From the NCBI RefSeq assembly GCF_053078305.1, contig NZ_CP166879.1: a stretch of 64,000 bases of DNA. The stretch is one strand, 5' to 3'. Shown piece after piece: positions 29,701-30,871 of the stretch. The position numbers and the translations under genes are program-made. The notes below the pieces were generated by a model, which had not been told where the DNA came from, did no database searches, and saw only the letters and a program-made list of their open reading frames with translations. Numbering within the stretch: the first letter of the stretch is position 1; each line of letters starts with the position of its first letter.

Positions 29701-30871
29701 CGTCAACTTTAGCCAGACGCCCGTTCAGACCGTCCTTCGCATCTCCGGCCGGCAGACCTTCCACCGCTTTCGCCGCATCTGCTTTCGCCGCCGTTACCGC
29801 ATCGTTCTTCGCCGCAAGATCATCATGCTCCTGCTGGGTGATCTTATTGTCAGCCTTCGCCTGAGTCAGCGCCGCTTCTGCTTCTTTTTCCTTCGCTTCC
29901 GCTTCTGCTACCTTGGCTGTCGCTGCATTCACCGCCTCTGCTGCTTCCTCTGCATCCGGCTTGCCGTTGCCGTTTTCATCCACTGCCGGTACATCGATAC
30001 CGTCAACTTTAGCCAGACGCCCGTTCAGACCGTCCTTCGCATCTCCGGCCGGCAGACCTTCCACCGCTTTCGCCGCATCTGCTTTCGCCGCCGTTACCGC
30101 ATCGTTCTTCGCCGCAAGATCATCATGCTCCTGCTGGGTGATCTTATTGTCAGCCTTCGCCTGAGTCAGCGCCGCTTCTGCTTCTTTTTCCTTCGCTTCC
30201 GCTTCTGCTACCTTGGCTGTCGCTGCATTCACCGCCTCTGCTGCTTCCTCTGCATCCGGCTTGCCGTTGCCGTTTTCATCCACTGCCGGTACCTGGTCGG
30301 AAGAGCTTCCACTTCCCGCCTCAGTTGAGGCTGTGGATGATACTTCTGTTTTTCCAGCCTCCTGACCGCCTTCAGGCTGAACCGGCTTCTGCTCACCTTC
30401 AGTTGCACGCTTATGACGACTGCTTCCACCACCGCCTCCGGCAGCCAGTGCAATAGCCGCCAGCCCTGCACCAAAAGCAATCCCCCCCCAGATAATCCCG
30501 TTATTGATACCTTCAGCCAGTGTGCCACTTTGCCCTGCAGTAAAATTCTCCAGTACAGGACCATCCTGGGTCAGGACAGCTTCAGTTACCTGACCATTTT
30601 CACCCACAACATTAAACACGGCTGTACACTGTGTTTCACCCGGCTGGCATTCTTCCCAGAATCCCTCAATCCGGATTTCTGTATCATCTTCCTTTTTACG
30701 CAGAATTAAATCATCACCAGAACGGTCCGCTTCCACACCATCCGGGACCAGACCTGTCACCTCATCAACCAGTCCATACTGTTCCCCGGCCTGTGCCTTT
30801 ACAGTATGACGGGCTCCGGCTGTCAGTACTGTTTTTTCTCCACTGACCTTGCCGGTGAAAATCATTTTCAT
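23798..30871 (-). CDS. giant T1SS-secreted repeat adhesin (TosA/RTX-adhesin-like), 2357 aa
   Basis: No signal peptide; N-terminal hydrophobic Gly/Ala-rich segment; about 18 identical 100 aa repeats; C-terminal RTX-like GxGxDD motifs; sits next to T1SS genes. Confidence 0.85.
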   Translation of the reverse strand: MKMIFTGKVSGEKTVLTAGARHTVKAQAGEQYGLVDEVTGLVPDGVEADRSGDDLILRKKEDDTEIRIEGFWEECQPGETQCTAVFNVVGENGQVTEAVLTQDGPVLENFTAGQSGTLAEGINNGIIWGGIAFGAGLAAIALAAGGGGGSSRHKRATEGEQKPVQPEGGQEAGKTEVSSTASTEAGSGSSSDQVPAVDENGNGKPDAEEAAEAVNAATAKVAEAEAKEKEAEAALTQAKADNKITQQEHDDLAAKNDAVTAAKADAAKAVEGLPAGDAKDGLNGRLAKVDGIDVPAVDENGNGKPDAEEAAEAVNAATAKVAEAEAKEKEAEAALTQAKADNKITQQEHDDLAAKNDAVTAAKADAAKAVEGLPAGDAKDGLNGRLAKVDGIDVPAVDENGNGKPDAEEAAEAVNAATAKVAEAEAKEKEAEAALTQAKADNKITQQEHDDLAAKNDAVTAAKADAAKAVEGLPAGDAKDGLNGRLAKVDGIDVPAVDENGNGKPDAEEAAEAVNAATAKVAEAEAKEKEAEAALTQAKADNKITQQEHDDLAAKNDAVTAAKADAAKAVEGLPAGDAKDGLNGRLAKVDGIDVPAVDENGNGKPDAEEAAEAVNAATAKVAEAEAKEKEAEAALTQAKADNKITQQEHDDLAAKNDAVTAAKADAAKAVEGLPAGDAKDGLNGRLAKVDGIDVPAVDENGNGKPDAEEAAEAVNAATAKVAEAEAKEKEAEAALTQAKADNKITQQEHDDLAAKNDAVTAAKADAAKAVEGLPAGDAKDGLNGRLAKVDGIDVPAVDENGNGKPDAEEAAEAVNAATAKVAEAEAKEKEAEAALTQAKADNKITQQEHDDLAAKNDAVTAAKADAAKAVEGLPAGDAKDGLNGRLAKVDGIDVPAVDENGNGKPDAEEAAEAVNAATAKVAEAEAKEKEAEAALTQAKADNKITQQEHDDLAAKNDAVTAAKADAAKAVEGLPAGDAKDGLNGRLAKVDGIDVPAVDENGNGKPDAEEAAEAVNAATAKVAEAEAKEKEAEAALTQAKADNKITQQEHDDLAAKNDAVTAAKADAAKAVEGLPAGDAKDGLNGRLAKVDGIDVPAVDENGNGKPDAEEAAEAVNAATAKVAEAEAKEKEAEAALTQAKADNKITQQEHDDLAAKNDAVTAAKADAAKAVEGLPAGDAKDGLNGRLAKVDGIDVPAVDENGNGKPDAEEAAEAVNAATAKVAEAEAKEKEAEAALTQAKADNKITQQEHDDLAAKNDAVTAAKADAAKAVEGLPAGDAKDGLNGRLAKVDGIDVPAVDENGNGKPDAEEAAEAVNAATAKVAEAEAKEKEAEAALTQAKADNKITQQEHDDLAAKNDAVTAAKADAAKAVEGLPAGDAKDGLNGRLAKVDGIDVPAVDENGNGKPDAEEAAEAVNAATAKVAEAEAKEKEAEAALTQAKADNKITQQEHDDLAAKNDAVTAAKADAAKAVEGLPAGDAKDGLNGRLAKVDGIDVPAVDENGNGKPDAEEAAEAVNAATAKVAEAEAKEKEAEAALTQAKADNKITQQEHDDLAAKNDAVTAAKADAAKAVEGLPAGDAKDGLNGRLAKVDGIDVPAVDENGNGKPDAEEAAEAVNAATAKVAEAEAKEKEAEAALTQAKADNKITQQEHDDLAAKNDAVTAAKADAAKAVEGLPAGDAKDGLNGRLAKVDGIDVPAVDENGNGKPDAEEAAEAVNAATAKVAEAEAKEKEAEAALTQAKADNKITQQEHDDLAAKNDAVTAAKADAAKAVEGLPAGDAKDGLNGRLAKVDGIDVPAVDENGNGKPDAEEAAEAVNAATAKVAEAEAKEKEAEAALTQAKADNKITQQEHDDLAAKNDAVTAAKADAAKAVEGLPAGDAKDGLNGRLAKVDGIDVPAVDENGNGKPDAEEAAEAVNAATAKVAEAEAKEKEAEAALTQAKADNKITQQEHDDLAAKNDAVTAAKADAAKAVEGLPAGDAKDGLNGRLAKVDGIDVPAVDENGNGKPDAIDRIGTVIYTGNVNMTQGHGVTAGSGQKVKIADDDLQKDSKSFLAIKAHEANVGTNVYVISKNGANNVALLEMTEGDNIITTELSLGNLGVSRWVRPMVVDTGAGDDTIVTGRDLGIGYSDLWTEVNTGIGDDILIVGFGRGGYDVVYGKDGSYRIEETAKYQRLDGDIIIPDNDSGYPNNGGFIEKTTVTMEDGNDSLLLLGGNSLAALKSSTLDLGAGNDVIDIVANIDNASNIKGGSGFDTLVIHQGNATSNTFSGFEKIELKDGAALNLLAENLNSASIEGNKLKVTGDGSSRVDLGNNGDNLSDNGYNWIKGSTESEGDITYNIYTHASVPDVQVLIDERITNVV
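24850..30292 (-). repeat. tandem array of about 18 perfectly identical 300 bp coding repeats
   Basis: Exact 300 bp periodicity visible directly in the sequence; each unit encodes a 100 aa Ala/Glu/Lys-rich repeat. Confidence 0.95.

What the first reader, a model, noticed from the sequence alone, without database searches (positions are those of the whole stretch)
30400..30520. N-terminal Gly/Ala-rich hydrophobic segment in the giant adhesin
Residues around 120-150 (GIIWGGIAFGAGLAAIALAAGGGGG) form a TM-like stretch downstream of a roughly 110 aa N-terminal globular region. This resembles the N-terminal retention or plug modules of LapA-type adhesins, yet I see no LapG/LapD-like protease or c-di-GMP receptor genes in the window, so surface retention or release may work differently here.
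Basis: inference. Interest (0 to 1): 0.35.

Follow-up and report, generated by a model that had tools for sequence, protein, structure and literature searches.

The report
Greasy glycine-rich tether in adhesin anchor
The membrane-like stretch is real and conserved, and it appears to be the tether next to the plug that keeps a secreted surface adhesin attached to the cell, in a class of adhesins with no known release protease.

Summary
Residues 125-149 (GIIWGGIAFGAGLAAIALAAGGGGG; window 30425-30499, minus strand) are the only hydrophobic stretch in a 2357-aa adhesin. The adhesin is encoded just downstream of its own type I secretion genes.

AlphaFold2, run twice, puts residues 1-122 in a confident all-beta domain. 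It leaves residues 123-161 unstructured, so the segment is not part of a fold.

The module sits at the N-terminus of about 70 protein clusters from Escherichia, Salmonella, Proteus, Gallibacterium, Testudinibacter and Neisseria. It consists of the N-domain, a Trp-initiated Gly/Ala-rich hydrophobic stretch and usually a poly-Gly run. Two BapA-prefix adhesins checked, including EHEC OI-28 ECs_0541, show the same layout. All 65 LapA-type, LapG-cleavable retention modules examined lack it.

No LapG or LapD domain was found in 40 window ORFs.

Best reading: this is a LapG-independent retention module, and the slim hydrophobic/poly-Gly stretch is the tether held in the secretion conduit. A true inner-membrane anchor is not excluded.

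Verdict: new variant of a known kind, moderate interest.

The parts
23798..30871 (-). Adhesin gene, 2357 aa: N-terminal module, 18 identical GA-like repeats, C-terminal non-repeat region
   Evidence: ORF list and translation. Pfam GA_3 PF22775. RefSeq name for the E. coli equivalents is 'GA-like domain-containing protein'.
30506..30871 (-). N-terminal all-beta domain, residues 1-122; the presumed plug. In the close subfamily F71, W72, C75, Q81 and C82 are invariant.
30440..30499 (-). Hydrophobic Gly/Ala-rich stretch, residues 125-144 (GIIWGGIAFGAGLAAIALAA); Trp near its start
   Evidence: KD 2.03 and unique in the protein. pLDDT<50 and no helix in two AF2 runs. Equivalent stretch in 44/44 relatives, with Trp near the start in 33/44. 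Absent from 65 LapA-type modules.
30425..30439 (-). Poly-glycine run, residues 145-149 (GGGGG), directly after 'LAAG'
   Evidence: Seen in the sequence. A run of four or more Gly follows the hydrophobic stretch in 22/44 relatives. A poly-Gly linker is described for LapA-type and PA1874-type modules.
30407..30424 (-). Basic patch SSRHKR, residues 150-155
   Evidence: Seen in the sequence. A basic/His-rich patch is kept in E. coli and Salmonella relatives (KHRH, HHKH, NHKH, SYK). It is not kept across the wider family.
30290..30424 (-). Polar low-complexity linker, residues 150-194, between the poly-Gly run and the first repeat
   Evidence: Translation. AF2 pLDDT 55-62 with no secondary structure.
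24851..30292 (-). Tandem array: 18.1 copies of a 300-bp unit (100-aa GA-like module), 100% identical
   Evidence: Tandem Repeats Finder; Pfam GA_3.
23798..24850 (-). [quoted passage not shown]
   Evidence: Motifs read from the translation. No NCBIfam match, so the secretion signal is inferred from context.
31156..32418 (-). HlyD-family T1SS periplasmic adaptor (membrane fusion protein)
   Evidence: TIGR01843 at 321.7 bits, above its cutoff; Pfam HlyD_3.
32463..34610 (-). T1SS ABC permease/ATPase, LssB subfamily
   Evidence: TIGR03375 at 891 bits against a cutoff of 693, covering residues 4-704.
34615..35883 (-). TolC-family outer-membrane channel
   Evidence: Pfam OEP in two stretches. TIGR01844 at 109.7 bits, below its cutoff. 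RefSeq name 'TolC family protein'.

Best explanation
Residues 1-195 form a LapG-independent retention module of a type-I-secreted adhesin. The protein leaves the cell C-terminus first through the adjacent TolC-like/ABC/HlyD system. The 122-aa acidic beta domain at the N-terminus folds without help from the repeats and is too large to follow, so secretion stalls and the adhesin stays attached.

The stretch in question is a Trp, then about 18 small and aliphatic residues, then GGGGG. It is the flexible, very slim piece of chain next to the plug. It is held in or at the entrance of the secretion conduit and may pack against its walls. The following 45 polar residues span the rest of the channel.

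There is no canonical LapG site and no LapG/LapD gene nearby, so attachment is probably constitutive or ended by some other means.

Shown: the segment's existence, uniqueness, conservation, lack of predicted structure, position next to a folded N-domain, the T1SS linkage, and the contrast with LapA-type modules. Inferred: the plug role, the location of the segment in the conduit, and LapG independence in vivo.
For: - The segment is unique in the protein and conserved in position and character in 44/44 relatives.
- The module is always at the extreme N-terminus, in proteins up to 4233 aa.
- In E. coli the same module precedes GA-like, Ig-like or beta-strand-repeat passengers. That fits an anchoring or secretion role rather than ligand binding.
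- Two AF2 runs give a confident beta domain for residues 1-122 and a disordered 123-161.
- T1SS genes are adjacent here and in two Gallibacterium loci.
- The ABC transporter is LssB-type; LssB exports Legionella RtxA (PMC6959600 abstract).
- Two BapA_N-positive adhesins checked (EHEC OI-28 ECs_0541 and Salinicola P0122) carry the same Trp, Gly/Ala hydrophobic stretch and Gly run right after the prefix domain.
- Published experiment: the PA1874 N-terminus, with a degenerate AAAIG site and a poly-Gly linker, replaced LapA's retention module for surface retention but was LapG-insensitive (10.1101/198937).
- Across the family the stretch is often interrupted by Pro (11/44) and its simple Hessa sum reaches +3 to +5 kcal/mol. 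The flanking charges do not consistently follow the positive-inside rule. These features argue against an obligate membrane helix.
Against: - A water-filled TolC-type channel gives no obvious reason to conserve hydrophobicity or a Trp at the start of the stretch. Both are hallmarks of lipid-embedded segments.
- LapA-type modules manage retention with purely polar linkers, so the hydrophobic character needs a separate explanation.
- In the E. coli/Salmonella subgroup the acidic N-domain, the borderline-favourable insertion energy and the basic patch after the Gly run fit a reverse signal-anchor.
- I could not confirm that PA1874 itself has a hydrophobic stretch.
- No complex model or experiment places the segment.
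- Homology of this N-domain to BapA_N is weak: hhalign gives 29% probability over 24 columns.
Confidence: 0.5

Rival explanations
1. The stretch is a genuine inner-membrane helix acting as a reverse signal-anchor. It inserts co-translationally. The acidic N-domain crosses to the periplasm, where C75-C82 would be oxidised, and the basic patch stays in the cytoplasm. The remaining 2200 residues are then exported C-terminus first by the T1SS. The adhesin ends up tethered by a chain that passes from an inner-membrane anchor through the whole secretion conduit.
For: - KD 2.03 over 19 residues; simple insertion-energy sum about +0.2 kcal/mol.
- Trp near the start in 33/44 relatives.
- A basic/His patch right after the Gly run in E. 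coli and Salmonella relatives.
- The N-domain has a net charge of about -12 (counted).
- The Cys pair is invariant in the close subfamily and present in 35/44 relatives, which suggests an oxidising compartment.
- Small-xxx-small ladders (G130-G134-A138; A135-A139-A143) are typical of packed membrane helices (read).
Against: - AF2 predicts no helix and gives pLDDT<50 in two runs with different alignments.
- Gly plus Ala make up 37-74% of the stretch, and Pro lies inside it in 11/44 relatives.
- Many relatives have strongly unfavourable insertion sums.
- The downstream basic patch is not conserved outside the enterobacterial group.
- T1SS substrates are not known to use Sec or YidC (own knowledge).
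- The topology would jam the transporter permanently.
Confidence: 0.2
2. The end of the stretch (A-L-A-A-G, followed by poly-Gly) is a cryptic release site. It could be a degenerate LapG-type xAAG site, or an Ala-X-Ala or small-residue site for another envelope protease such as signal peptidase or a rhomboid. Under this reading the segment exists to present a cleavage site rather than to tether.
For: - 'LAAG' lies between the domain and the poly-Gly run. That is the position of TAAG/PAAG/AAAG in LapG substrates (PMC6890996).
- 'AAG' occurs in or just after the stretch in 18/44 relatives, and several read AAAG.
- LapA-type modules also have poly-Gly after the site.
Against: - No BTLCP or LapD domain in 40 window ORFs, nor beside the Gallibacterium or Proteus loci.
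- The LapG recognition context (DPxxxLxxTAAG) is absent.
- PA1874's similar degenerate site was not cut by LapG in vitro.
- In a Gly/Ala-rich stretch, AxA and AAG motifs are expected by composition alone.
Confidence: 0.12
3. The stretch is simply a buried strand or helix of the folded N-terminal domain, or a chance low-complexity run with no role.
For: Composition-matched shuffles reach the same hydrophobicity in about 5% of trials. The protein is Ala/Gly-rich overall.
Against: - Two AF2 runs end the confident domain at about residue 122 and give the stretch pLDDT<50.
- The stretch is kept in position and character in relatives as low as about 21-30% identity, and in two BapA_N-type adhesins whose N-domains are barely alignable to this one.
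- It is systematically absent from LapA-type modules.
Confidence: 0.04

Closest known systems
BapA/Bap/LapF-type N-terminus (Pfam PF22783 BapA_N, NCBIfam NF033677); examples checked: EHEC O157 OI-28 ECs_0541 and Salinicola P0122
   Same: - An N-terminal beta domain of about 120-130 aa with the core motif R-x-G-(D/N)-D-L-x-(I/L)...I-x-x-(F/Y)-(W/F).
- It is followed at once by a Trp-initiated Gly/Ala-rich hydrophobic stretch and a Gly run.
- It is encoded with its own T1SS.
- In the loci checked (this window and the Sakai OI-28 annotation) no LapG or LapD is linked.
   Different: - This protein's N-domain does not match PF22783 or NF033677 at any reported E-value.
- Only 3/44 relatives match PF22783 and 2/44 match NF033677, both weakly.
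- hhalign aligns only 24 columns, at 29% probability.
- The subfamily has its own invariant FW...C...QC signature with a Cys pair.
P. aeruginosa PA1874 (BapA) retention module, studied by Smith et al. (bioRxiv 10.1101/198937)
   Same: It is an N-terminal module with a degenerate di-alanine motif (AAAIG) and a poly-Gly linker. It retains an adhesin at the surface but is not cut by LapG. This is the behaviour proposed here.
   Different: I could not retrieve the PA1874 sequence, so its similarity to this module, and whether it has a hydrophobic stretch, are untested.
LapA-type, LapG-cleavable retention modules (P. fluorescens LapA, V. cholerae FrhA/CraA, MpIBP region I; NCBI name 'retention module-containing protein')
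   Same: Both have an N-terminal folded plug, a Gly-rich linker and a dedicated LapB/LssB-type T1SS. In LapA-type adhesins the protein is held in the TolC-like pore.
   Different: - No profile match.
- No TAAG in the DPxxxL context.
- LapA-type linkers are polar: 0 of 65 have a 19-mer with KD of 1.6 or more, against 28 of 44 here.
- MpIBP's pore-spanning part has no transmembrane-like sequence (PMC5550230).
- No LapG or LapD genes in the window.
- The solved MpIBP N-domain is not among the best 50-60 fold matches.
Acinetobacter Bap, Blp1 and Blp2 shared N-terminal motif (De Gregorio et al. 2015, PMC4647330)
   Same: A distant relative, P0105, matches NCBIfam Blp2 at E=4.6e-29 across its N-domain and hydrophobic stretch. 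The paper notes a shared N-terminal motif in these biofilm adhesins.
   Different: The paper assigns no function to the motif and does not mention a hydrophobic stretch. Identity to this protein is only about 26%.

Membership tests
LapA-type LapG-cleavable retention module | Match to the curated N-terminal retention-module profile | tested here: not met
   Residues 1-200 give no NCBIfam or Pfam family at E up to 0.1 and 0.01 respectively. Genuine LapA-type N-termini are named 'retention module-containing protein' by NCBI.
LapA-type LapG-cleavable retention module | Canonical (T/P/A)AAG di-alanine site between the plug domain and the poly-Gly linker | tested here: not met
   The only AAG is LAAG, at residues 142-145 inside the hydrophobic stretch. 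The family-conserved '(L/T)AG(Q/E)xGTL' at 110-118 has a single Ala. All 11 LapA-type modules whose details were printed, out of 65 analysed, show TAAG.
LapA-type LapG-cleavable retention module | Polar, non-hydrophobic linker after the plug | tested here: not met
   The highest 19-mer KD here is 2.03. The 65 LapA-type modules have a median of 0.91 and a maximum of 1.58.
LapA-type LapG-cleavable retention module | Linked LapG (BTLCP, PF06035) and LapD (PF16448 plus HAMP/GGDEF/EAL) genes | tested here: not met
   None among 40 window ORFs scanned with Pfam. None beside the Gallibacterium or Proteus loci. The rest of the host genome could not be searched.
LapA-type LapG-cleavable retention module | Dedicated LapB/LssB-type ABC transporter with adaptor and TolC-like channel | tested here: met
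   TIGR03375 at 891 bits (cutoff 693), TIGR01843 at 321.7 bits, and OEP domains.
BapA/Bap/LapF prefix-like N-terminus (PF22783 / NF033677) | Profile match above the curated cutoff | tested here: not met
   No match for this protein. Three of 44 relatives match PF22783 (best E 0.0012) and two match NF033677 (best 4.4e-6). hhalign against ECs_0541 gives 29% probability.
BapA/Bap/LapF prefix-like N-terminus (PF22783 / NF033677) | Architecture: N-domain, then a Gly/Ala hydrophobic stretch and a Gly run, at the start of a T1SS repeat adhesin | tested here: met
   ECs_0541 (BapA_N, 3.8e-20) continues with FPWGWLAGAAVGGGALGALLASGG. P0122 (BapA_N, 1.9e-15) continues with LGWAAIGGGALAAGALAAGGGGGGGGGG.
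Canonical transmembrane helix / signal anchor | About 19 or more apolar residues with favourable insertion energy | tested here: inconclusive
   KD of 2.03 passes the usual 1.6 threshold. The simple Hessa-scale sum of +0.2 kcal/mol is borderline, and relatives range from -0.4 to +5.4. No dedicated predictor was available.
Canonical transmembrane helix / signal anchor | Predicted helical conformation | tested here: not met
   Both AF2 models show no helix and pLDDT<50 for residues 123-161.
Canonical transmembrane helix / signal anchor | Conserved flanking charge asymmetry (positive-inside rule) | tested here: inconclusive
   There are three basic residues within 15 aa downstream here, and similar patches in the E. 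coli/Salmonella subgroup. Most other relatives have none or one.
Canonical transmembrane helix / signal anchor | Demonstrated membrane integration | not testable with these tools
   This needs fractionation or topology mapping.

The most novel reading that the evidence does not exclude
The stretch is a real membrane-inserting element that gives a type-I-secreted adhesin a lipid anchor. Most plausibly it is a reverse signal-anchor. It would place the disulfide-stapled N-domain in the periplasm before the remaining 2200 residues are threaded out through the T1SS. The result would be a protease-independent tether spanning both membranes, and it would define how the whole BapA-type class is retained.
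Probability: 0.15. Interest if true: 0.7.

Novelty: new variant of a known kind. Interest (0 to 1): 0.38.

Why it matters
Giant type-I-secreted adhesins drive biofilm formation and host attachment. For the LapA class, retention and release are understood: a plug in the TolC-like pore, cut by LapG under c-di-GMP control. For the BapA-type class, which includes E. coli, Salmonella, Acinetobacter and Pseudomonas adhesins, they are not.

This analysis identifies a simple sequence feature that separates the two classes. A Trp-initiated Gly/Ala hydrophobic stretch lies ahead of the poly-Gly run. It was present in all 44 members of this family and in the two BapA_N proteins checked, and absent from all 65 LapA-type modules.

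That feature gives a concrete target for mutagenesis, to ask how LapG-less adhesins stay on, or leave, the cell surface. It also defines an N-terminal domain subfamily that current Pfam and NCBIfam models miss.

Tried and rejected
- Pfam and NCBIfam scans of residues 1-200 returned nothing.
- A PDB sequence-profile search returned only scFv Gly-Ser linkers, which are spurious.
- The afdb50 fold library was unavailable.
- The search for related loci with the broad alignment A1 failed for lack of a conserved stretch. The narrower A2 worked but found only 11 loci.
- Neighbourhoods of three long homologues showed no T1SS, LapG or LapD within 10 kb, which is uninformative.
- The profile search of the 5.8-billion-protein set was swamped by short E. 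coli fragments.
- Smith et al. 2018 (PMC5869472) is not held, so the preprint was used instead. The relevant part of the Chem Rev review lies beyond the held text.
- I could not find a statement on the distribution of LapG/LapD in Enterobacteriaceae, and I could not search whole E. coli genomes with a protein query.
- 'Part of a folded domain' was rejected on the two AF2 runs. 'Chance low complexity' was rejected on conservation.
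Full report
**What is there.** The finding lies in a 2357-aa ORF on the minus strand, 23798-30871. The quoted peptide GIIWGGIAFGAGLAAIALAAGGGGG is residues 125-149, which is window 30425-30499.

The protein has five parts:
- a non-repetitive N-terminus of about 195 aa;
- 18.1 perfectly identical 300-bp repeats at 24851-30292, each encoding a GA-like module (Pfam GA_3);
- a C-terminal region of about 350 aa with degenerate GxGxD-type motifs.

Directly upstream on the same strand lie three secretion genes:
- a TolC-family channel (34615-35883);
- an LssB-subfamily T1SS ABC transporter (32463-34610; TIGR03375 at 891 bits against a cutoff of 693);
- a HlyD-family adaptor (31156-32418).

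The locus is 99.5% identical to islands in E. coli chromosomes and plasmids. The N-terminal region is found in 314 of 5426 complete E. coli genomes.

Composition alone is weak evidence, because 97 of 2000 shuffles reach the same value. Conservation is decisive. An exhaustive phmmer search of 1.8 billion representative proteins found 71 clusters. The match was nearly always at residues 1 to about 155 of the target, in proteins up to 4233 aa.

In an alignment of 44 N-termini:
- every member has a Gly/Ala-rich (37-74%) hydrophobic 19-mer at residues 120-165;
- 33 have a Trp near its start;
- 22 have a run of four or more Gly just after it;
- 35 keep a Cys pair in the preceding domain.

The 44 were chosen because they cover this region, so '44 of 44' is slightly favoured by selection. 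In a few members the stretch lies further downstream and lacks the Gly run.

**Is it part of a fold?** No. Two AlphaFold2 runs with different alignments (44 and 12 sequences) agree. Residues 1-122 form a confident all-beta domain, with pLDDT mostly above 90. Residues 123-161 have pLDDT below 50 and no secondary structure. It also means the stretch is not predicted as a helix.

In the close subfamily F71, W72, C75, Q81 and C82 are invariant. A scan of species-representative genomes found the module in three Proteus species, four Gallibacterium species (five loci), Testudinibacter and two Neisseriaceae. T1SS genes lie divergently adjacent in two Gallibacterium loci.

Distant relatives touch known families:
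- P0105 matches Acinetobacter Blp2 at E=4.6e-29.
- A few members match BapA_N weakly.
- The family profile finds a Salinicola BapA-prefix protein at E=8.6e-6. The shared Gly/Ala run may inflate that score.
- hhalign against a bona fide BapA_N protein aligns only the 'R-G-DDL...I..FW' core, at 29% probability.

Homology of the N-domains is therefore suggestive, not established.

**The architecture is shared with BapA-type adhesins and absent from LapA-type ones.** The EHEC O157 Sakai OI-28 adhesin ECs_0541 matches BapA_N at 3.8e-20. It continues with FPWGWLAGAAVGGGALGALLASGG. OI-28 has been shown to support adherence (PMC12758282). The Salinicola protein continues with LGWAAIGGGALAAGALAAGGGGGGGGGG.

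For contrast I retrieved genuine LapA-type N-termini, named 'retention module-containing protein', and analysed 65 of them. The 11 whose details were printed all carry TAAG followed by a Gly run. None of the 65 has a 19-mer with KD of 1.6 or more after residue 70; the median is 0.91 and the maximum 1.58. In this family the median is 1.71 and 28 of 44 are at or above 1.6.

This agrees with Guo et al., who found no transmembrane-like sequence in the pore-spanning part of MpIBP (PMC5550230).

**LapG and LapD.** Forty window ORFs were scanned with Pfam, covering every ORF large enough to be LapD and every unexplained ORF of LapG size. None has a BTLCP or LapD domain. Nor do the genes beside the Gallibacterium T1SS or the Proteus locus. 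The rest of the host genome could not be searched.

The protein has no (T/P/A)AAG site in the LapA context. Its only AAG is LAAG, at residues 142-145 inside the hydrophobic stretch.

**How it most likely works.** Published work shows three things:
- LapA is held in its TolC-like pore by an N-terminal module.
- A poly-Gly linker is common to such modules.
- The PA1874 N-terminus, with a degenerate site, substitutes for LapA's module in retention but is LapG-insensitive (10.1101/198937).

On that basis I read residues 1-195 as a LapG-independent retention module. It consists of a plug domain, then a slim Trp-Gly/Ala-poly-Gly tether in or at the secretion conduit, then 45 polar residues. Those 45 residues would be about 150 A long if extended, close to the length of a TolC channel (own knowledge). 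This is an inference, and I give it about 0.5.

**The main rival** is a true inner-membrane reverse signal-anchor, at about 0.2. Features in its favour are the hydrophobicity, the leading Trp, small-xxx-small ladders, an N-domain with net charge about -12, a basic patch after the Gly run in the enterobacterial subgroup, and a conserved Cys pair suggesting a periplasmic N-domain. Against it are the non-helical AF2 prediction, the high Gly content with frequent Pro, unfavourable insertion sums in many relatives, and non-conserved flanking charges.

A cryptic protease site gets about 0.12. Chance, or a buried element of the fold, gets about 0.04.

**Verdict.** The segment belongs to a retention-type N-terminal module that works without the Lap protease circuit. 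However, it is not a LapA-type module, and a LapG-insensitive class is already known experimentally.

Two things appear not to be described in the papers I could search. One is the conserved hydrophobic stretch as a class marker. The other is this N-domain subfamily, which current profile libraries miss.

It is a new variant of a known kind and of moderate interest.

Noticed in passing
window 24851-30292: There are 18.1 tandem copies of a 300-bp unit at 100% identity with no indels. Such perfect identity implies very recent expansion or ongoing homogenisation. Many database copies of the protein are truncated within the repeats.
   Followed up: partly
window 21770-23698 (-): A 642-aa RTX protein lies directly downstream of the adhesin. 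It shows HemolysinCabind repeats and a full-length match to NCBIfam PueAB polyurethane esterase at 334 bits, below that model's cutoff of 670. It is probably a second substrate of the same T1SS.
   Followed up: no
window 37541-38314 (-) and 38339-42703 (-): A 257-aa protein with BamE and OmpA domains lies immediately downstream of a 1454-aa YadA-type trimeric autotransporter. The pairing resembles the TpgA partner of Acinetobacter AtaA (own knowledge). It belongs with the autotransporter, not with the T1SS.
   Followed up: no
window 20301-21527 (-): A second, smaller YadA-like trimeric autotransporter of 408 aa is present. The island therefore carries three adhesins of two secretion types within 23 kb.
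   Followed up: no
window 12269-14276 (-): Fragments of a SPATE-type autotransporter are split over several ORFs: an ESPR signal with Peptidase_S6 at 13431-14276 and a beta-solenoid piece at 12269-12979. It is probably a decayed gene next to IS3 and IS110 copies.
   Followed up: no
window 3527-12278 versus 14194-21164 and 30300-35900: The aspA/dcuA-type backbone genes are only about 89% identical to their best E. coli matches. The island segments are 99.5% identical to E. coli. The host may be a non-coli Escherichia or a close relative carrying a recently shared island.
   Followed up: partly
L001 (E. coli JNEC-KY176) 10586-16305: In this E. coli genome the adhesin is cut short by an IS3 insertion, and the ABC transporter gene is annotated as a pseudogene with an internal stop. 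The system is decaying in some strains.
   Followed up: no
E. coli genomes, hits H27-H40: The same N-terminal module, at 79-99% DNA identity, heads proteins annotated as GA-like, Ig-like or beta-strand-repeat-containing. A conserved N-terminal cassette is combined with different passenger regions.
   Followed up: partly
window 30626-30649 (residues 75-82): A Cys pair (C75...C82, in FWEECQPGETQC) is invariant in the close subfamily and present in 35/44 relatives. A conserved disulfide would imply that the N-domain sits in the periplasm. It was not checked in the model coordinates.
   Followed up: partly
window 55046-57727 (-): An 893-aa protein combines AAA_11/AAA_12 superfamily-1 helicase domains with a C-terminal DUF2726. 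It sits between IS elements and the T6SS genes and may be a defence-type gene.
   Followed up: no
window 58401-63965 (-): A type VI secretion cluster runs off the window end: an ImpA_N/VasL-domain protein, a gp25-like protein, TssJ, TssG and TssF.
   Followed up: no
L017 (E. coli O157 Sakai) 6355-26823: The OI-28 adhesin is annotated as two ORFs, ECs_0541 and ECs_0542. Only ECs_0541 has an N-terminal module. ECs_0542 begins mid-repeat with a Val codon, so the two published 'adhesins' may be one interrupted gene.
   Followed up: partly
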